Origin: Sphyrna mokarran
Lineage: Eukaryota
Reading direction: 5' to 3'
Assembly (NCBI GenBank): GCA_024679065.1
Contig: JAGIQG010000016.1
Coordinates: 39,246,001-39,310,000, forward strand
Length of the DNA stretch: 64,000 nucleotides
The position numbers and the translations under genes are program-made. This document shows, piece by piece, positions 50,301 to 64,000 of this stretch; the stretch's first letter is position 1; the number at the start of each line of letters is the position of its first letter. Under the pieces are notes generated by a model. It ran no database searches. It had not been told where the DNA came from and was given only the letters and a program-made list of their open reading frames with translations.

Positions 50301-50824
50301 AGGAGGTAGTGCAGCATTATTATTTTAACACTCTCTCAGGGCAGTTCAGAAACAGAACTATTGTTACCCATTGAACTGTTCTGTTTAATAATGGCTGTTG
50401 CTGATTTCTGTTGGCATCCTCGGATTTTGAAGTTGGACAACCAGCCAAGTATATTAGAAGTCAGCCTGGTCAGAGAGAGTAACTTCTGGGCTGCTGGAGG
50501 TAGCAGATACAATGAGATGAAAGAACACTGGCGTGAGTTGGTCAAACACCAGCTGGGCATAAATGGAGGAAAAACTTTTGCAGTTTATGAGGAAGTCAAG
50601 CTCAGTTGCAGCTACATGGAATTGTCAGAATTTGAAAAAGGCAATAAACCTTGCAGCTTGTTCTTCAAAAGAACAAAGAATGAAGAAAAATACAGCACAG
50701 GGAACAGTCCTTGAGTCTTCCAAACTTGTGCTGATCATGATGCCCTAACTAAACTAAAAAAAATCTGCCCTTAATAGTCCGTGTTCCCTCCTTATTCATG
50801 TACTTTTCCAGATGCCTCTTAAAT

Positions 50825-53240
50825 TTTTTTTTTTAAGCAACACAGCACGGGAAACAGGCCCTTCGGCCCAACGAGCCCGCGCCACCGTAATACCAAATCA
50901 TTATCCTATTTTAATAGTCCTATATAATAATATATATATTAATCCTAATTTGGAAAATTTTCACCATAGGGACAATTTGTTACCCAATCAGCCTAAGAGC
51001 GAATTTTTGGGTTGTGGGAGGAAACCGGAGTGCCCGGAGAAAACCCACGCAACCACGGGGAGAACGCGCAAACTCCCGCAGACACCGGCCCAATTCCAAG
51101 TGTCTGCACAGCCACATCGATAGTCTCTGAGCTGTCATGGTGCCCTTCAGGTGGTCCACATAAAGCACTCATATACGACATGAGGTACCAGGCAACCCAT
51201 GAATCAACATCCAAGAGCTGTACCCGCACCACCTGCCGAATGCGTGCTCAAATTATGGACCGAATTACCTGTGAAAAAAAGCCGTAGTTAAACAGTCCTA
51301 ATATATCCCTCTATCTGCATACCGCTCATGTGGCTGTCCAAGAGACCCTTAAACAGCCCCAGCGTGCCTGCTCCCACCACCTTACTCGGCAGTGCATTCC
51401 ACACCCCCACTACCCTTTGTGTGAAAAACTGCCCTCTAATATTCGTCCTATACATAGCCCCCCTCACCCTATGGCCATGACCTCTCGTCCTATCCATTTC
51501 TAAAGGTGGAAAAAGTTTACCTCCATTTACTCTATCTATACCCCTTATAATCTTATACACCTCTATGAGATCCCCTCTAAGCCGACGTCTTTCAAGGGAA
51601 AACAACCCCAGTCTATCTAATCGTTCCTCATAGGACAGTCCTTCCATACCAGGCAGCATCCTGGTAAACCTCCTCTGCACTCTCTCCAAGGACTCCACAT
51701 CCTTCCGATAGTACGGAGACCAGAACTGGGCGCAGTATTCCAAGTGAGGCCTAACCAAAGTTGTATACAACTGCAACATCAAACTCCTACTCTTATATTC
51801 TATACCCTTTTCTATGAAAGCTAACATACTATACGCCTTCTTTGTCACCTTCTCCACCTGTGAGACTTGTGAACCTGCACCCCCAAGTCTCTCTGCGTCT
51901 CTATGCTCCTTATAGTTTTACCTTTTATCCTATAATTCTCTTCTACATTTTTCCGGCCAAAATGCATCACCTCGCATTTTTCCGGATTAAATTCCATTTG
52001 CCATCTATCTGCCCAATCTACCAACCTGTCTATGTCCTGTTGTATTGCCTGACACTGCTCTTCTGTACCCGCCAATCCAAGCATCTTGGTGTCATCAGCA
52101 AATTTGCTGATCTCACCACCTACCCCTACTTCCAAGTCGTTTATGTAGACCACAAATAGAAGAGGACCTAGTACTGAGCCTTGTGGCACTCCACTAGTGA
52201 CAGGCTTCCAGCTGGAAAAAGAGCCTTCCACTACTACCCTCTGTCTCCTCCTTCCGAGCCAGTTTTCGACCCATCTACATACCCGACCCTGTATCCCATG
52301 CGCCTTCACCTTCTCTATCAGTCTACCATGAGGAACCTTGTCAAACGCCTTACTGAAATCCATGTAGACGACATCAACAGCCTGTCCTTCATCAACTGTT
52401 TTTGTCACTTCTTCAAAAAATTCCACCAGATTCGTAAGACAAGACTTCCCCTTGACGAAGCCATGCTGCGTATCCCTGATCAGATCGCAGCGCTCCAGAT
52501 GCTCATACATCCTGTCCCTGAGGATCCTCTCCATTAGCTTACCTATAACTGAAGTCAAGCTCACCGGCCTATAGTTCCCTGGGTGATCCCTCTGACCTTT
52601 TTTAAACAACGGTACTACGTTTGCTATCCTCCAGTCCTCTGGGACCTCACCTGTGTCCAAGGAAGAGACAAAGATTTGCGTCAGAGGCCCAGCCAAGTCT
52701 TCCCTCAACTCCCTTAGCAGCCTGGGGTAAATGCCATCAGGCCCCGGAGCTTTATATGTCTTTAAGCTGCCTAACAGCCCCAACACCTCTTTCCTCGTAA
52801 TCCTTATTTCCCTCAACCAATCTTCAACTTTGTCAACATCAGGCACAGACATCTGTCCAGTCTCCTGCGTGAATACCGACGCAAAGTATTCATTCAGGAT
52901 CTCCCCCATTCCCTCAGGCTCTAAGCATAGATCCCCTCCACTGTCCCTAAGAGGTCCAATCTTGCCTCTAACCATCCTTTTGCTCCTTACATAGGTGTAA
53001 AATGCCTTTGGATTTTCTTTAATCCTACCTGCCAGAGCCACCTCATGGCCCCTTTTTGCCTTTCTAATACCCCTTTTTAGATCCCGTCTACACTCTCTAT
53101 AAGCTTCCAGCGCTATCTCAGTCCCTAGTTGCCTAGATCTAATGTAAGCCTCTCTCTTTTTCTTGATCAAGTCCTCAATCTCCCTGGTAAGCCAAGGTTC
53201 TCTAATCCTACCTTTCCCATGTTGGGATCCTACCAATCCC
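50825..53240 (-). mobile_element. Young 5'-truncated CR1 LINE: ORF2 RT nearly intact, ~460-bp 3' UTR, poly(A)
   Basis: Long open frames 51845-53240 ([35 protein letters not shown]) and 51288-51857; CpG-rich; apparent 4-bp TSD AAAT (50821-50824/53241-53244); 3' stem-loop GGCC-GAAG-GGCC. Confidence 0.96.
51288..53240 (-). pseudogene. CR1 ORF2 reverse transcriptase (truncated, one frameshift)
   Basis: Two overlapping ORFs joined by an apparent 13-nt deletion at ~51862 (HKS..QVEK versus HRSLKAATQVDK in the 12.3-kb copy). Confidence 0.93.
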
Positions 53241-54759
53241 AAATGTTGGTAATGGGCCTGCTTCCACCACCTACTCTGGCAATGCGTCCCAGGTACCAAC
53301 TACTTTCTGTATGAAAGCTTCTTCTGCACGTCTTTCTTAAACTTTCCCTCCCTCATCTTGAACCTGTGCCTCCTTGTAATTGACACTTCCAGTAGAGGAA
53401 AAAGCCTCTGACTATCCACCCTGTCTATGCCTCTCATAATTTTGTAGACCTCTATCAGGTCTCCTCTCAGCCTTCAACCAGCATCTTTCCAGCGAAAATA
53501 ATCTTAGTTTATTCAACCTCTACTCATAGCCAACACCCTTAAGACCAGGCAATATTTTGGTGAACCTTCTTTGCACCTTCTCCAAAGCTTCCACATCCCT
53601 CCAGTAGTGTGGTGACCAGAACTGCACTCAATAGTCCAAATGTAGCCTAAGAAAAGTTTTATGTGACTACAAAATGTAGTCTCTACACTCTTGTACTCAG
53701 TGCCCCAACTGATGAAGGCAAGCATGGCCACCTAGGTTGCCACTTCCAGGGAACTGTGAACCTACACGCACAGATCCCTCTGTATGTTAATCTTCTTAAG
53801 GTTCTGCCATTTCCAATATAATTCACACCTAAATTTGAGATTTCAAAATGCATCACCTCACATTTGTCTTGAATAAACTCCATCTGTCATTTCTGTGCCC
53901 AAGTTTCCACGATATACCAGGTTGTATCCTCTGACAATAGCTGGCATTATCAGCAACCCTTGTTGAAAGTTTTGGGAAAGTCCATGAAATCAGATGTCCA
54001 GCCAAACAGTGCATCAGTGACCTTTTTTACTGAAGAATGTCTGCAGCTTAGTTATATTACATACATCTGCAGCTGCAACCTGGAATGACCCTGATGCATC
54101 AAAATTCAGGCTGTTGGTGACCTTAACAACCACCCCATAGGCAAAGCAGTGCCCACTGTAATTCCTGCTGTAAACTTATATTGACAAGCAATCTCCTGCT
54201 GTACTTATTTTTACTACTTCAAGTAGCTCAATCTGAGCCTGTGCACTCTATCAGCGTGGCAAAGCTGGCCCACCAGCTTTCTGGATCCTTCAGTAGGCTT
54301 TTGTTTTAATCTTGGGAATTTTTAAATCGGTTGTTGCTGCTATTGTTTCACCTTTTTTTACAGTCAGTAAGGAGATGGCCGACACTCAATAGTGAGTATT
54401 CAGCAGAATGGTTGAAATAACAAAAATTGCAAAAGGGAAAGGCACGATTTCATCTATAAAACTGCCTTGGTAAACCTCCTAGAATGCCCCATGTAGTTGT
54501 CACTGAACAAATTCTTTGCTGTTAAGTACCCCTTTAAATATTACCAGAAGTGTCTGTTTCTGACCTGTACATCTTTAGATGGTTTCAGCATTGAGGGGTT
54601 ATCATGTTAAAATGCATGATAAGGTTTTGGGATCTATCTGAAACAGTCAGAAGAAGATTTGCACACTAATGAAACTTTTTGTTGATCAAGGCTAGCTGCC
54701 CCAGCTTTCTGTGTCCTGGTCACAATTAAAATGGTGGCACGTGGACTGGCAAAAGAAAC

Positions 54760-57575
54760 TGTATTGATGGCCTGAAGGACATGGGGTATTGTCAATAAGT
54801 CACCTCGTGGGCTTCATGGAATACGAGTTCTCTCATTGAGAAAGCAGGGACTTGCCCTGTATGAAGCACTCAGTGGGGATTTTTAAACATGTCATTCTTC
54901 TGGACCTTTGTTGTTGGTCCCAAGGTGCTGAATTGCTTAGCTGTGAGCTGTGGGAGAGGTCTCTTTCTTGGTACAGAACAAAGGGCGTGTGGTTACGGGA
55001 AACTGGTATTTGGCTGAAATATTACATTGGCAATGAGGATAGGATAGGGTTACATCCAGTAGAGGATAAGGTAAAGGCCATCAAAGAAATATCACCCCCT
55101 AGAAGCACCACAAGTTGAAATCCTTTCTGGGACTAATAAACTATTATGGAAGTTTAATCCTGAGCTCGGTTTCCATGGTAGCCCCATTGCACGTCCTACT
55201 GCAAAAATACCCGAGATGGTCCTGGGAAACTTTGCAAGTACAGATTATATCTAAAGTTAAACATCAGCTCCTGTTGATTAACCTACCGGCCCATTTTGAC
55301 CCTAAGAAAGAATTTATATTGACTTTTGATGCTTACCCATGTGGGCTGGAGCAGAGCTGTCACATTGCTGGAAAGGCGGGAAAGAAAACCCATCATGTAT
55401 GCTTCCAGATTCCTTTCAGACATGGAGTGACAGTATTCTCAGATGAGAAAGAAGCATTGGCGGTCGTATTTGGTGTGAAAAATTTCTATCAATACGTGTC
55501 TGATAGATTTGTTTTATAGTTACTGACCCTAAAGCCTTGTTTGACCTTTTCTGTCCCATTGCTTCCACATGGATTTAGTGATGGGCCTTGCTATTGATGG
55601 CCTATGAATATCTTTTAGAACACCATCACCTGAATAACTAAGGTTGACACACAGAGTCACCTCCTATTGTTCACAGAGTACCAGCATTGGCAGAGGTCAT
55701 GATGACTCTGAAGTTTTGGGAGACTTTGCCAGTGTCAACAAGTCAGGTTAAACTTTGGGCTAAAAAAATCCAACTCTTTCTAAAATAAGGCACATGATTT
55801 TGCACAGAAGATTCCAGGGACAATCCTCTGAAGAAATGAAATCTTACCTCAGGAAGAAAGATGAAAGTGTCGAGGATGGGATCATTCTTTGGGGGGTCCT
55901 GACTAACTGTTCTACCCCCAGGATGACATCCAATATTAATGGAACTACATAATGGCCATCAGGAGAATCCAAAATGAAGACGTTGGCTAGCAGTTACATC
56001 TGGTGGCCAGTCTTGAATCTGACATCACAGGCCTGGTAAAATGATGTGACCTCTAACAGCAAAAACTCCCTCCCTCAGCCGTCCCACATCTAGGAAGTAG
56101 GCTAGCAGGTTATGGGTATGTGTACATGTGGAGCTTGCAGGACCCTTTATGGGTTCCATGTTTTAATCATGACGGATGCACATTCCAAGTGGTTGGAAGT
56201 ATACTGTATGGGCTCCATGGCTTCCCAAGCTATGATCAAGAAATTACAGTAAGAGGTCTGGCAACACCAATTTTAAATCCAACCAATTTATTTGATAGTA
56301 AATCTGCTAGCTTTCAGCATTTGTGCCTTCGTCAGGTGAATGAGGTGTGCTGGTTTTGGAGACCAGAACATCTCATTTGTGTTGGTGTTGCTAGACCTCT
56401 TACTGAGTTTACCCCAGTCCAACGCCGGCATCTCTACATCTAGAAATTACAGCATAGCTTCAGTATACACAGAATACGTGATGTCCTGGTTTCCAATAAT
56501 GACACGGCCTTTACTAGTGATGATTTCAAGAACTTTGTGTTCTCCGATGGTATCCAGCACATCTAGACTGCACCTCATCATCAATTGTCAAATGGATTGG
56601 CAATATGGCAGTGCAAACCTTCAAATACAGTACAAAAAAACAACTGCCAACATCCATGGAGACCAAACTTGTATACTTTTTATTTGATTACAGGACCACA
56701 CTGCACACAAAAACATGTGTGGCCCCTGTAGAGCTGTTAATGGTTGGCAGCTTCATACCAGGTTAAGCCTGCAATTCCCAAGTCTGATGGGGAAGGTGGA
56801 GTCCCAAAAAGAAAACCAAAAAAAAATTAAAATTCTCCGAGGAAAGAAAGATCTTTCTCAATGAGTGATCTAGTTCATATCAGAAACTTTGGGGATGGTC
56901 CCAGTAGGGTCCCTGGGATCATTAGGGAGGAAACAGGACCAGTATTGTATAAGGTCCGGGGTAAAGCCTTGAGGAAACACTTGGACCATTTGAGAGCCAC
57001 GGAGTCTTTGCTCAAGCACGTTTCACTGCCGGCTATGGAGACAGCCGCTGCCCTCAAAGTTGATTCAGTGTTAATCCTTCTGGATAGTGGAGGTACAGAT
57101 TTGTGACAGAGGCTGAAGAAGTGGGCATCAAGGCTGAAGCAAGATCTGAGGAAAAACACACTTCAGTAACACCTTGATGCTCCTTCCAGTAAGGAAAGTC
57201 CCCTGTTCGGTTTATGCCATCTGATTCATTTCTGTCATCAAAAGATCTCTGAGCAATTGCTAAATGACACTAAAGACTTCCTCCCAATAGAGCTGCTGGG
57301 AGAGACTCGGACGTTATGATGGCCATGAAGACTATGAAGGATCTTTGATAGATCTCCTTCCGGATTTTCTAAGTACGAGCTCCCTTATTGAGCAAGAGGA
57401 GGCTTCTCAAATAAGAAGCATTCAGCAAGGGCTTTTAAACTTGTCCCTTCACTCAGACCAATGCTTAAGTCCCAAAGTGTTTAAAATACCTAACTGTGAG
57501 CCACAGGGACAGTCTCCTTCTTGGTACACAACAAAGGGTGCTTGGTGAGGGATAACTATGGCAATAGAGCAGTTA
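54760..57575 (+). mobile_element. Ty3/Gypsy LTR element lacking gag, PR and most of RT
   Basis: LTRs ~54760-55026 and ~57312-57575 share TACGAG.TC.C..ATTGAG and TCTTGGTACA.AACAAAGGG; PBS-like TGGCAATGAGG at 55028; GLHPVEDKVKAI, KSFLGLINYY, EKEALAVVFGVK, integrase remnants, VHIRNFGDGP..PGII..TGPVLYKV. Confidence 0.9.
56250..56441. mobile_element. Short fold-back Penelope pLTR insertion inside Gypsy integrase
   Basis: TSD AGAAATTACAG at 56239-56249 and 56442-56452; minus-strand hammerhead CAC-CTGACGA-A-GGCA(CAAA)TGCT-GAAA-GC-TA (~56306-56338); right arm internally deleted. Confidence 0.92.
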
Positions 57576-58405: not shown

Positions 58406-59234
58406 AATAAAGCTGTCAAGGCCTTGTTATGTTATGGAGTTTGTAAACTGTTCCAGATGATCTGTGAGATTAATTGTTGATCCAGGAGTGCAAACGATTT
58501 GATGAATACTTGTTTTGTGGTCTTGTAAACCCTGGGAAACTGTCAGACAGGAATGAAAATCAGAAACTATATGGTGATAGCATCTAATGAGACTGTGCAA
58601 AATACATAAAAAAGTGACACCAAGGGGGTGATTTTATGATTGTGTTGAGCCCATTTTCAGGTGTGAAAACTTGGTAAAGTCAGTCATGAGGCAAATAGTG
58701 CAATCCATGCTCATATTCGTGCCGATTTCCCCTTTACCAAGGCCTGAAAATGGCCAAGATTGACACCAAGGCTGAAACAAGTGCAATGCGTTTGCGTGCA
58801 TTTAAATTGAATTAATGGGCTGTCTGTCCAACTTTACAAGCACTTTCCCCTTTACCACCACATTCATTAATCCCAGATTGGCACGAAACAGACATGCTTA
58901 ATATAAGTCCAATTTGGATGCTTCATCAGTGAAGGTTTATGTGGGAGATAAATGCATGGCGTCCGACAACTGTCTGCTTTGGGTGTCCTGTTGTTGCGGC
59001 CATTTTCTATCTCGGGTCAGTAGTGGCTCTGAGACTATATGGGGGAATGGGGGGCAGGGGGCTGTTGCTCTGCAGGCTCTCCGATGTTTGTCTTGCAGCA
59101 CAGACCCGGATCTCAGCACTGACCTCAGGTGTTGCTGTGCTGCTGAGTCCTAGCTCACTCAGTTCACTTCCAGCTGAAGGATGTATGCAAAGTCTTTGCA
59201 AATTGCACTGCTGCATCCTCTCAATTTTGCAAGG

Positions 59235-59780
59235 AGCTGTGATTGTGGGTAGCATGCAGCTGGAGGAATTGGGAGGCTGTGAGTGTGGGGGGCATGTGGC
59301 TGGAGGAATTGGGAGGTTCTTATTTGGGGGGGCATGTGGCTGGAGGAATTGAGAGGTTGTGATTGTAGGGGGCATGTGGCTGGAGGAATTGGGAGGCTGT
59401 AGGTGTAGGGGGCATGTGGCTGAGGGAATTAGGGGGCTATAATTTTGGGGAGCACGTAGCTGGGGGAATTGGGGTTCTGGGATTGTGGGGAGCATGTGCT
59501 GGGGGACTGGGAGGCTGTGATTGTGGGGGGCATGTGGCTGGAGAATTGGGGGTACTGGATTGTGGGGGCATGTGGGTGGGGATTGGGAGTACTGGAATTG
59601 TGGGGACATGTGGCTGGGGAATTGGGAGGCTGTGATTGTGGGGGGCATGTGGCTGAGATTGGGGTACTGGGATTGTGGGGGGCATGTGGGTGGGGGAATT
59701 GGGAGTACTGGAATTGTGGGGAGCATGTGGCTGGGGGAATTGGAAGGCTGTGATTGTGGGGAGCATGTGGCTAAGGGAGT
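59235..59780 (+). repeat. G-rich minisatellite, ~39-bp unit, ~14 copies
   Basis: Unit GGGGCATGTGGCTGG(A/G)GGAATTGGGAGGCTGTGATTGTG with variants. Confidence 0.95.
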
Positions 59781-59827
59781 TGTGCGATGGGGGCTAAGAT
59801 TGTGGATGTGTTAGGGGGAAGCAGTAT

Positions 59828-61660: not shown

Positions 61661-62055
61661 TGGGTTTCTTCCATGGGTTTCCTCCAGATGCTCTGGTTTC
61701 CTCTCACAGTCCAAAAATGTGCGGGTTAGATTGATTGGCCAAGCTAAATTGAGCCTACTATCAGGGGATTAGCAGGGTAAATATGTGGGGTTGCGAGAAT
61801 AGGGTCTATGTGGGAATGTGGTCAGTGCAGATTTGATGGGCCGAAAGACCCCCTTCTATACTGTATGGGTTCTCTGATTCTATGATTAGTCAAGTGAGAG
61901 AGATGTTGCAGCAAAGCTGTGATTTAATTGGCACTTTAATCAGAGATAATGCAGGGTAAATATGTGGGGTTATGGGAATAGGAGCTGTATGGGATTGTAG
62001 TTGGTGCAGACTCGATGGGCCAAATGGCTTCCTTCTGCACTATAGGGATTCTGTG
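61661..62055 (+). mobile_element. 5'-truncated HE1 SINE (61661-61887) plus a second tail-only copy (61951-62055)
   Basis: Both contain GCAGGGTAAATATGTGGGGTT..GGTGCAGA.T.GATGGGCC..TTCT. Confidence 0.88.
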
Positions 62056-62574: not shown

Positions 62575-64000
62575 TATATAAGCAGCTAGAGCGACAATTG
62601 GAAGATGCATTTTTAGTCAGGGAGAACAAGGCAATCATGGAAGGGAGGCAGAGTAAGGTGGTGGACCCGGACCCTAAGGGGGGGAACCTGACCCTTACAG
62701 GTGGATTACTATAACGAAGGGGAAAAAAGGAGAGAGGAGACAGTCCAAAGATTTCCCCAGTGGCAGTCCCCCAAAATATCAAGGGCAAAGGGGTAAAAAA
62801 GGTAAGGCAGGAGGACCAGAGTACCTCAAAGGGGAGGAAAGGGGCTAAAAGTGAGATAGTGGTGGGGGATGGGAGGGTTAAAGGAATAGTTAGGCACTTC
62901 TGTGGTCAAAGGCAGGACTTCAGGATGGTAGTTTGCTTCCCTGGAGCAGGGGTGCAAGATGTGTCTGACAGGATAGAGGGCATTTTGAAGGGTGAGGGGA
63001 CCCAGGTGGATGTGATTATTCATGTAGGAGAGGAGGATGTAGGAAGGAAGAGCAGGGAGGATATACAAAGGCAGTTCAGGGAGTTGAGGGGTAGGCTGAA
63101 GAGCAGGGCCTCCAGGGTGACAATCCCAGGGCTGCTTCCAGGGCCAACTAATAGCGGAGCCAGGAGAAATGAGATCCTACAGCTGAATGCGTGGCTGAAG
63201 GACTGGTGGAGGACAGAGGGTTTCATATTTGTGGATAACTGGGAAGTATTTGTGAAAGAAAGGCAATTGTATAGAAGGGACGGGGAACACTTAAATGGGA
63301 AGGGTGTGAATATCTTAGCTGGGAGGTTAGCTGGGCTGTTTCGGCAGGATTTAAACTAATATGGAGGGGGGGAGGGGCTGAGACCGATAGCTCGGTAGAG
63401 AGCGAGATGGGAGACAGAGTAAGCTTGGATGAGAAGAAATACACCAGGGAGAAGGAGGTTCTGAGTGGGCTTGGAGTCTGGAGTGTGTCTGCTTCAATGT
63501 GAGGAGCGTAACAGGAAAAACGGATAAATTTAGGGCCTTAATGTTTGCAAGGAACTTGGATGTGGTTGCAGCGACGGAGATGTGGTTAAAGGAAGGGGAG
63601 CAGTGGCAGCTGAATATTCCTGGGTACATGTGTTTCAGGCGTGACAGAGGAGGGTCCAGAAGAGGTGGAGGAGTGGCGTTATTAGTTAGGGAGAGCATCA
63701 TGGCGGTGTAGAGGGAGGACAATACAGAGGAGTTAGGAGTGGAGTCGCTGTGGGTGGAGTTGAGGAATAGAAAGGGGGCGATTACTATGCTAGGGGTATA
63801 TTATAGGCCAACCAACAACCCGCGGGTAGTTGAAGAAGGCATATGTAAAGACATTTGGATAGGTGCAGAAAGAACAGAGTCGTTATAGTGGGAGATTTTA
63901 ATCTCCCTAGGGTGGATTGGAAGGTACCTAGAGCTGGGTGTTTGGACAGGGAGGAATTTGTAAAATGTGTACTGGAAGGATCGTTGGAGCAGTATGTGGC
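62575..64000 (+). mobile_element. CR1 LINE 5' portion: ORF1 (coiled coil plus SGNH esterase-like) and ORF2 APE endonuclease start
   Basis: KQLERQLED..; ORF 62760-63359 VVCFPGAGVQDV, IIHVG, LNAWLKDW, RDGEHLN; ORF2 CFNVRS..DVVAATEMWL..IPGY..RRDR..GGGVALLV..LWVEL..GVYYRP; runs off the window. Confidence 0.95.
62760..63359 (+). pseudogene. CR1 ORF1 SGNH-esterase-like domain
   Basis: Blocks I-V recognisable (GDG, PGA, HVGEED, DGEHL) but catalytic motifs are altered. Confidence 0.85.

What the first reader, a model, noticed from the sequence alone, without database searches (positions are those of the whole stretch)
50825..51290. Young CR1 LINE carries a V-SINE core domain inside its 3' UTR
Seen in sequence: after the ORF2 stop (51288) there are ~200 bp of unique sequence. 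Then 51085-50965 reads GTGTCTGCGGGAGTTTGCGCGTTCTCCCCGTGGTTGCGTGGGTTTTCTCCGGGCACTCCGGTTTCCTCCCACA..TTAGGCTGATTGG..AAATTGTCCC, clearly homologous to the HE1 V domain but a distinct CpG-rich variant with no tRNA head. An AT-rich spacer, the CR1 terminal stem-loop and poly(A) follow. One apparent TSD (AAAT) encloses the LINE and the V domain together, and other CR1 3' UTRs in this window are only ~100 bp. Established: the V domain is regarded as a SINE-specific conserved core of unknown function. Inference: an autonomous LINE has captured the SINE core (or is a source of it), which could reveal its function.
Basis: partly seen in the sequence, partly recalled or inferred. Interest (0 to 1): 0.72.

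Follow-up and report, generated by a model that had tools for sequence, protein, structure and literature searches.

The report
LINE carrying a captured V-SINE
A recently inserted jumping gene (a CR1 LINE), probably from a shark, ends in what looks like a whole captured SINE whose own promoter has decayed while its conserved "V" core stayed intact, which could offer a way to test what that core does if other copies share the arrangement.

Summary
The sequence is as described. A 2.4-kb, 5'-truncated CR1 (53240-50824, minus strand) sits cleanly inside an older CR1 and has a 452-nt 3' UTR containing a V domain.

One correction: the V domain is probably not headless. A degenerate tRNA head starts at 51145, with its B-box arm deleted, so the last ~310 nt are colinear with a complete V-SINE. 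That makes the direction SINE into LINE; the LINE is unlikely to be the source.

The copy is young (no stops in 643 codons, so roughly 5% or less decay). Yet its SINE part differs from resident SINEs by 21% (V, non-CpG sites) to 48% (head) and is CpG-rich, so the divergence predates this insertion. The V core stem-loop keeps all 9 pairs. The other 142 nt form a hairpin on the sense strand only (z -4.45).

Best reading: a CR1 family that captured a V-SINE, lost its Pol III promoter and kept V as an RNA element. A second copy, the decisive evidence, could not be obtained. Two papers say such domains are unknown in LINEs; a DNA-transposon precedent (MER6) exists. Family-level capture ~0.67; selected V function ~0.45.

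The parts
53241..53244 (-). 5' copy of the 3-4 nt target-site duplication
   Evidence: the empty site restores the host reading frame
51866..53240 (-). CR1 ORF2, 5'-truncated, containing the reverse transcriptase domain (about 52600-51944); no stop in 456 codons
   Evidence: (RVT_1, E 9e-35)
51288..51865 (-). ORF2 C-terminal part after a single frameshift near 51860; stop codon 51290-51288
   Evidence: 90% identical to unnamed protein P0021, which ends at the same residue
51146..51287 (-). 142-nt segment with no homologue found; folds into one long imperfect hairpin on the sense strand only (46 pairs, 8 of them G-U)
   Evidence: (z -4.45, 0 of 200; antisense z -1.04)
51094..51145 (-). probable degenerate tRNA-derived V-SINE head; about 18 nt including the B-box loop deleted; its 3' end pairs with the start of V
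   Evidence: for. Weak or null:
50965..51093 (-). V domain, CpG-rich
51010..51048 (-). V highly conserved (Vhc-like) stem-loop with internal loop; all 9 pairs intact, all 5 differences from the resident consensus unpaired
   Evidence: structure as described in PMC4758252
50886..50964 (-). AT-rich, diverged middle part, weakly colinear with the SINE middle; holds a 13/16 repeat of the ORF2 end at 50922-50907
50836..50885 (-). CR1-type tail with bipartite stem-loop (lower stem 50883-50876 with 50851-50844; apical hairpin 50870-50855)
50824..50834 (-). poly(A), 11 nt
50821..50824 (-). 3' copy of the target-site duplication (its first base may belong to the poly(A))
53241..53902 (-). older, decayed host CR1, 5' part
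   Evidence: (CpG o/e 0.14)
50690..50823 (-). older host CR1, 3' part with its own short UTR and tail

Best explanation
An ancestor of this CR1 subfamily acquired a complete V-SINE at its 3' end, by insertion into the UTR, read-through into a neighbouring SINE, or a template switch. The composite has since been copied as one Pol II LINE transcript by target-primed reverse transcription from the terminal stem-loop.

Inside the LINE the SINE's Pol III promoter was not needed and decayed: the B-box arm was deleted and the head is about half changed. The V core and the RNA fold were kept. V most likely acts as a structured cis element of the retrotransposing RNA (stability, RNP assembly or presentation of the tail), independent of Pol III transcription.

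Shown: the anatomy, the clean insertion, the youth of the copy, the uneven divergence and the predicted folds. Inferred: that the head remnant is homologous (~0.85); that the arrangement is family-wide (~0.67); that V is kept by selection on the RNA (~0.45 overall).
For: (1) One insertion. One TSD, and the host frame is restored on removal. No CR1 tail remnant lies between the stop and the SINE part.
(2) Young copy. 0 stops in 643 codons; simulated P(no stop) is 0.07 at 4% and 0.03 at 5% divergence.
(3) The SINE part diverged before insertion. V differs from the resident consensus at 22 of 107 non-CpG sites (old copies 11-18%), keeps 5 of 9 CpG-type sites and has 4 more CpGs. CpG o/e is 0.92 in V and 0.85 in the UTR, against 0.14-0.32 in 5 resident SINEs; 0 of 135 background tiles reach the UTR value.
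(4) Uneven conservation. Head 17/33 against V core 63/74 identical (Fisher p 0.0005), whereas decayed resident copies are even (266/316 against 409/490). In free V-SINEs the head is well conserved: the resident consensus and a teleost Ac1 head match at 30/33 by eye.
(5) Head remnant. MAFFT and a covariance model built without the element place it in the same register. 10 of 16 mismatches are transitions (p 0.016), and only 4 of 120,842 background positions score as well. 13 of 15 ungapped pairs of the SINE head fold are kept, 3 through double changes.
(6) RNA structure. Whole UTR z -4.55 (0 of 100). The 142-nt hairpin folds on the sense strand only. All 9 Vhc pairs are intact and the 5 differences are unpaired (p 0.035).
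(7) The ORF2 subfamily exists elsewhere (P0021 90%, P0097 81%).
Against: No second copy of the UTR was seen. Three protein searches with UTR translations found no linked copy: 0 hits, 79 V-SINE-type hits with none matching the 142-nt segment, and 0 hits. These are weak tests for non-coding DNA.

Head homology failed a gapped-alignment test (about half of the shuffles scored as well) and was marginal as best-anywhere (80-181 of 2000). Pair retention was not significant when identical positions were held fixed (p 0.16-0.78). Alignment covariation was not above shuffles (98 of 500).

V alone does not fold better than shuffles (z -0.5). V overall is no closer to the resident consensus than old decayed copies are. 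The test segments were chosen after looking at the data, and the consensus rests on 7-10 decayed copies.
Confidence: 0.45

Rival explanations
1. The capture is family-wide, but V is only a passenger. The LINE needs the terminal stem-loop; V looks conserved because the donor was a different V-SINE lineage and too little time has passed.
For: V differs from the resident consensus at 21% of non-CpG sites. By eye its core matches a pipefish Ac1 consensus at 46 of 47 nt, so the donor may not be the resident family. V alone is not unusually stable. In MER6 a headless V-SINE spread inside a DNA transposon with no need for an RNA role (PMC6887750).
Against: The head and the AT-rich middle on either side of V have changed far more than V, although heads of free V-SINEs are well conserved between sharks and teleosts. 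All Vhc pairs are intact.
Confidence: 0.22
2. A one-off chimera. During this insertion (or in a single donor locus, by 3' read-through) the reverse transcriptase joined an ordinary CR1 to the RNA of a separate young short element (hairpin + dead head + V + tail) that is absent from this window.
For: Template switching is the accepted route for module exchange and for chimeric retrocopies (passages in PMC4758252 and PMC2653535). The junction would lie right at the stop codon, and a 13/16 direct repeat flanks 378 nt (3-4 of 300 shuffles reach it). No second copy was seen.
Against: It needs an unseen mobile element with no intact Pol III B box (best match has 3 mismatches; ARAGORN finds nothing). 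The 142-nt segment has no match in the window or in Rfam (only E 3.9 and 6). Ordinary flanking DNA would be CpG-poor and unstructured, but this segment is neither.
Confidence: 0.22
3. A 5'-truncated resident SINE inserted into this LINE's UTR after the LINE had integrated.
For: SINEs are dense here (about 10 other copies or fragments in 64 kb) and nesting is common; this LINE is itself nested.
Against: The SINE part would be younger than the LINE (about 5% or less), yet it differs from resident copies by 21-48% and is CpG-rich. No LINE tail survives outside it and the outer TSD abuts its poly(A).
Confidence: 0.05
4. The LINE is the source: V began as part of a CR1 3' UTR and SINEs borrowed it together with the tail.
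For: LINE UTRs have supplied SINE bodies (RTE and Vingi 5' UTRs; PMC5786205), and the SINE tail is CR1-derived.
Against: A probable tRNA-head remnant sits upstream of V in SINE register. V-SINEs occur from cnidarians to vertebrates with many different tails. 0 of 5 other CR1 ends in the window and 0 of 9 distant CR1 loci (37-63% identity; not all reach the 3' end) carry V.
Confidence: 0.03

Closest known systems
CR1-clade LINEs of cartilaginous fishes (HER1, partner of HE1; table in PMC3747384)
   Same: RT-encoding ORF2 with a CR1-type C-terminus (59-69% identity to named shark and ray proteins), 5' truncation, very short TSD, terminal stem-loop.
   Different: The UTR is 452 nt rather than about 50-100 nt, and contains a long hairpin, a dead tRNA head and a V domain. 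Not compared with the HER1 sequence itself.
V-SINE superfamily (HE1, Ac1, DANA, Lam1; PMC4824008)
   Same: Head, V body, middle and CR1-type tail in the same order; Vhc stem-loop intact.
   Different: B box deleted and head about half changed, so it is not an independent Pol III SINE. It lies inside a LINE transcript.
MER6/MER6A MITE (PMC6887750)
   Same: A non-SINE mobile element that carries body and tail of a V-SINE without a working head and spread it.
   Different: MER6 is a non-autonomous DNA transposon, so its RNA is not the transposition substrate and no selection on V RNA is implied. Here the carrier moves through RNA and a head remnant is still visible.
LINE-derived SINE bodies (RTE and Vingi 5' UTR in Ceph- and other SINEs; Ingi-3_AC; PMC5786205)
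   Same: Sequence shared between a LINE UTR and a SINE middle. The paper suggests recombination with a Ceph-SINE for a segment in the Ingi-3_AC 5' UTR.
   Different: Those involve 5' UTRs, mostly run LINE to SINE, and do not include V. The paper states that no sequence similar to the conserved SINE bodies had been found.
Chimeric retrocopies from template switching (U6-L1 and others; seen only as cited)
   Same: Two RNAs joined in one insertion under one TSD.
   Different: Those are one-off products of intact partner RNAs. Here the SINE part was already diverged and promoterless before this young insertion.

Membership tests
CR1-clade LINE | ORF2 with reverse transcriptase domain and CR1-type C-terminus | tested here: met
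   RVT_1 E 9e-35. Best named relatives of the C-terminus are proteins of sharks, rays, birds and turtles; I recognise them as CR1-type from recall, since the records do not say CR1.
CR1-clade LINE | RT phylogeny within the CR1 clade | not tested
   No reference RT set at hand; placement rests on similarity only.
CR1-clade LINE | Endonuclease domain and ORF1 upstream | not testable with these tools
   The copy is 5'-truncated at 53240.
CR1-clade LINE | Conserved 3' tail stem-loop, 5' truncation, short TSD | tested here: met
CR1-clade LINE | Short 3' UTR ending in a simple repeat | tested here: not met
   452-nt UTR ending in poly(A). Another CR1 in the window also ends in poly(A), so only the length and content are unusual.
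V-SINE (as an independent element) | V domain in the body | tested here: met
   E 8e-25 against a profile of resident copies; by eye 46/47 nt to an Ac1 consensus in the PMC6887750 supplement.
V-SINE (as an independent element) | tRNA-derived head with intact Pol III A and B boxes | tested here: not met
   B-box loop deleted, best match has 3 mismatches to a recalled consensus pattern; no tRNA found.
V-SINE (as an independent element) | Homology of the upstream 52 nt to the V-SINE head | tested here: inconclusive
   Probable. Supported and the background scan; marginal or null.
V-SINE (as an independent element) | LINE-derived 3' tail | tested here: met
   The last 95 nt align to the SINE consensus (z 7.8) and to 4 CR1 ends (z 2.6-7.1). 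Whether it came with the SINE or is the LINE's own is unresolved.
V-SINE (as an independent element) | Own TSD and multiple dispersed copies | tested here: inconclusive
   Only a degenerate 13/16 repeat around 378 nt; no other copy of this variant in the window.
HE1 family specifically | Identity to the HE1 consensus | not testable with these tools
   No Repbase, Dfam or SINEBase access. The element differs from the resident consensus at 21% of non-CpG V sites.
Composite LINE family with captured SINE | Same architecture at many independent loci | not testable with these tools
   No genome available; indirect protein searches were uninformative.

The most novel reading that the evidence does not exclude
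This is a member of an active CR1 family that swallowed a whole V-SINE, discarded its Pol III promoter and kept the V stem-loop under selection in a Pol II LINE RNA. It would be a conserved SINE domain found inside a LINE, which two papers say had not been found. It would show that V works at the RNA level of retrotransposition and would give a natural donor for SINE-LINE tail exchange.
Probability: 0.4. Interest if true: 0.8.

Novelty: new variant of a known kind. Interest (0 to 1): 0.6.

Why it matters
Why SINE cores such as V stay conserved for hundreds of millions of years is an open question (PMC4824008 section 13). [quoted passage not shown] A Repbase-wide comparison likewise found nothing similar to the conserved bodies (PMC5786205).

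A LINE family with V in its own UTR would remove that objection. It would also separate V from Pol III transcription and put it in cis in an element that encodes its own enzyme, so a standard retrotransposition assay could test it. If it is a one-off chimera or a passenger, it is a curiosity comparable to MER6.

Tried and rejected
Searching for other copies through translations of the UTR gave nothing linked; 2 candidates, 0 hits; 79 hits. Seven of them ran on past 51150 at 40-50% identity in tblastn and read as ordinary V-SINE or unrelated sequence. Two apparent V-to-ORF2 joins (P0128, P0172) were spurious (E 0.07 and 0.23 over the window). P0155 has a CR1 piece in the opposite orientation; no candidate.

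The prokaryotic genome scan gave 9 confirmed loci of 102 candidates, all distant CR1-like (37-63%). None has V; one has a weak tail match.

Rfam: 0 matches at gathering score in the window and only E 3.9 and 6 over the UTR, so no known RNA family explains the hairpin. ARAGORN found 0 genes.

A CpG-restored SINE consensus was over-corrected and dropped; the majority consensus was used instead. The gapped head test was null and alignment covariation was not significant.

Whether the tail is SINE- or LINE-derived could not be decided (9.0 against 7.3 bits). A resemblance seen by eye between the start of the 142-nt segment and the tail of two variant SINEs was not picked up by blastn and was dropped. 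No tree of V was built, because no outgroup sequences were available to the tools.

Full report
WHAT IS THERE. The window is vertebrate-like DNA rich in CR1 fragments and V-SINEs. The best named relatives of the ORF2 C-terminus by identity are shark and ray proteins (59-69%), so the source is probably a cartilaginous fish (inference). On the minus strand a 2,417-nt element runs from 53240 to 50824. It holds a 5'-truncated ORF2 with a reverse transcriptase domain (RVT_1, E 9e-35), one frameshift near 51860 and the stop at 51290-51288. A 452-nt UTR and an 11-nt poly(A) follow. The element interrupts an older CR1. Removing it together with one copy of a 3-4 nt duplication restores the host frame and colinearity with a paralogue at 18.5 kb. 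So LINE and V arrived in one event, unless something later inserted inside without trace.

THE V DOMAIN. blastn with 51095-50960 finds 8 other V-bearing loci in the window at 68-78% identity. A profile of 5 resident SINE copies aligns the element from model position 64 to 300 of about 323 (E 8e-25): V, the AT-rich middle and the tail in SINE order. By eye the core matches the Ac1 consensus of Syngnathus at 46 of 47 nt in the PMC6887750 supplement, better than the resident consensus (34 of 39 over the Vhc stretch). The donor therefore need not be the resident family. The Vhc-like stem-loop keeps all 9 pairs and its 5 differences are all unpaired (p 0.035).

A HEAD REMNANT. MAFFT and a covariance model built without the element (26.5 bits, E about 1e-5, much of it from V) both align 51145-51100 to the SINE head without gaps, followed by a deletion of about 18 nt that removes the B-box loop. 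Identity is 17 of 33, and 10 of 16 mismatches are transitions (p 0.016). Only 4 of 120,842 background positions score as well, roughly p 0.002 if 60 start positions are allowed. By eye it matches the head of Ac1 of Rondeletia at 25 of 42. Of 15 ungapped pairs in the SINE head fold, 13 are kept, 3 by double changes.

Against this: a gapped test was null (1430-1766 of 3000 shuffles as good); the profile test was marginal as best-anywhere (80-181 of 2000); pair retention was not significant with identities fixed (p 0.16-0.78); covariation on the 9-row alignment was not above shuffles (98 of 500). I rate the homology about 0.85. If it holds, the last ~310 nt are a whole V-SINE with a dead promoter (B box 3 mismatches against a recalled pattern; no tRNA), and the direction is SINE into LINE.

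TIMING. The two ORF2 frames have no stop in 643 codons. Simulation gives P(no stop) of 0.26, 0.07 and 0.03 at 2, 4 and 5% divergence. CpG o/e is 0.41-0.48 in ORF2, 0.59 in the spacer, 0.92 in V and tail and 0.85 over the UTR. Comparison values are 0.14-0.24 in older CR1s and 0.14-0.32 in 5 resident SINEs, and 0 of 135 background tiles reach the UTR value. Yet V differs from the resident consensus at 22 of 107 non-CpG sites (7 old copies: 11-18%), and the head differs at about half. This cannot have built up at this locus, and it does not look like decay in a dead copy, which loses CpG and is even across head and V (266/316 against 409/490; element 17/33 against 63/74, Fisher p 0.0005). Heads of free V-SINEs are conserved between this genome and teleosts (30 of 33 by eye). 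The pattern fits evolution in a replicating lineage that no longer needed the Pol III promoter (inference).

THE REST OF THE UTR. The 142 nt between stop and head have no match in the window, in Rfam or to CR1 or SINE tail profiles. They fold into one long hairpin on the sense strand (z -4.45, 0 of 200) but not the antisense strand (z -1.04); 1 of 153 background tiles is lower. The whole UTR has z -4.55 (0 of 100), mostly from this hairpin, since V alone gives -0.5. The last 95 nt align to the SINE consensus (z 7.8) and to 4 CR1 ends (z 2.6-7.1). A 13/16 repeat links the ORF2 end with 50922-50907 (3-4 of 300 shuffles). It may be an old TSD of an insertion into the UTR, or simply the LINE-derived part of a SINE tail. 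Stringent LINEs recognise their own tail stem-loop (abstract of PMC4176376), so the terminal hairpin is the likely priming signal either way.

OTHER COPIES. 0 of 5 other CR1 3' ends in the window carry V between stop and tail, but none is this subfamily. A SINE 3' fragment at 11494-11305 lies downstream of one of them, after that LINE's own tail and poly(A). Close ORF2 relatives exist as unnamed proteins (P0021 90%, ending at the same residue; P0077 86%; P0097 81%; P0001 79%), but without DNA. Three searches with UTR translations found no linked copy (with 47 and 51, 69), which is weak evidence because UTRs are rarely annotated as proteins. Nine distant CR1-like loci from prokaryotic assemblies have no V. 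The decisive test is therefore open.

MECHANISM. Best reading (0.45): a family-wide capture with V kept as a structured cis element of the LINE RNA. Rivals: family-wide capture with V as a passenger (0.22); a one-off chimera with an unseen short element (0.22); later nested insertion of a resident SINE (0.05); LINE as the source of V (0.03). Family-wide capture totals about 0.67. No step of the proposed function is shown experimentally.

LITERATURE. Nine searches listed no paper whose title or abstract start describes a LINE carrying V. The library lacks most subscription journals, and Repbase and Dfam could not be checked, so the family may already be deposited.

What I saw of each paper: PMC5786205, parts 1-4 of 5. 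PMC6887750, parts 1-3 of 5, a supplement search and supplement part 17 of 17. PMC4824008, passages, section 13 and supplement part 1 of 4. PMC4758252, passages and part 1 of 2 of section 11. PMC5804259, passages and a supplement search with no hits. PMC3747384, PMC11481361, PMC5499810 and PMC2653535, passages only. PMC4176376, abstract and outline. Ogiwara 1999 and 2002 and Buzdin 2003 were seen only as citations. I recall that BovB LINEs have incorporated SINE pieces, but that paper was not held and the point is unverified. Unread supplements of PMC5786205 could bear on LINE-SINE matches.

[quoted passage not shown] MER6 shows that V can ride in another kind of mobile element.

VERDICT. A real feature, better explained as capture of a whole V-SINE than of a bare core, and not an ordinary nested insertion. 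It is a new variant of a known kind. Interest 0.6 on one copy; about 0.8 if the genome shows a family with V conserved.

Noticed in passing
window 2843-2550 (-) and 31024-30720 (-): Two V-SINE copies share head and V with the other resident copies but have a different tail starting right after V, an example of tail exchange at the V boundary.
   Followed up: partly
window 62715-64000 (+): 5' part of another LINE with a GDSL/SGNH esterase-type ORF1 (E 3e-8), running off the window end; CpG o/e 0.34. Cannot be matched to the element because the two do not overlap.
   Followed up: partly
window 55103-55519 (+): Decayed RNase H-like remnant of an LTR retrotransposon (Pfam E 3e-5, below cut-off).
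   Followed up: partly
window about 7600-7750: Strong inverted repeat (folding z -13), possibly part of a non-autonomous element.
   Followed up: no
window 11830-11670 (-): Another CR1 also ends in poly(A) rather than a tandem repeat; a SINE 3' fragment (11494-11305) follows about 180 nt later in the same orientation.
   Followed up: partly
window 61669-61879 and 61925-62055 (+): Two 5'-truncated SINE pieces in tandem.
   Followed up: no
window 53250-53215 (-): The element's 5' junction has a 7-bp inverted repeat and a 7-nt match between the target flank and sequence about 20 nt inside the insert (read), a possible trace of how the 5' end was joined.
   Followed up: no
window 59007-59810 (-): A 267-codon open frame rich in Pro, Ser and His with strong GC skew, apparently a tandem repeat.
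   Followed up: no
loci L001-L009: Nine contigs in bacterial and archaeal genome records encode CR1-like ORF2 pieces, most likely animal host contamination.
   Followed up: no
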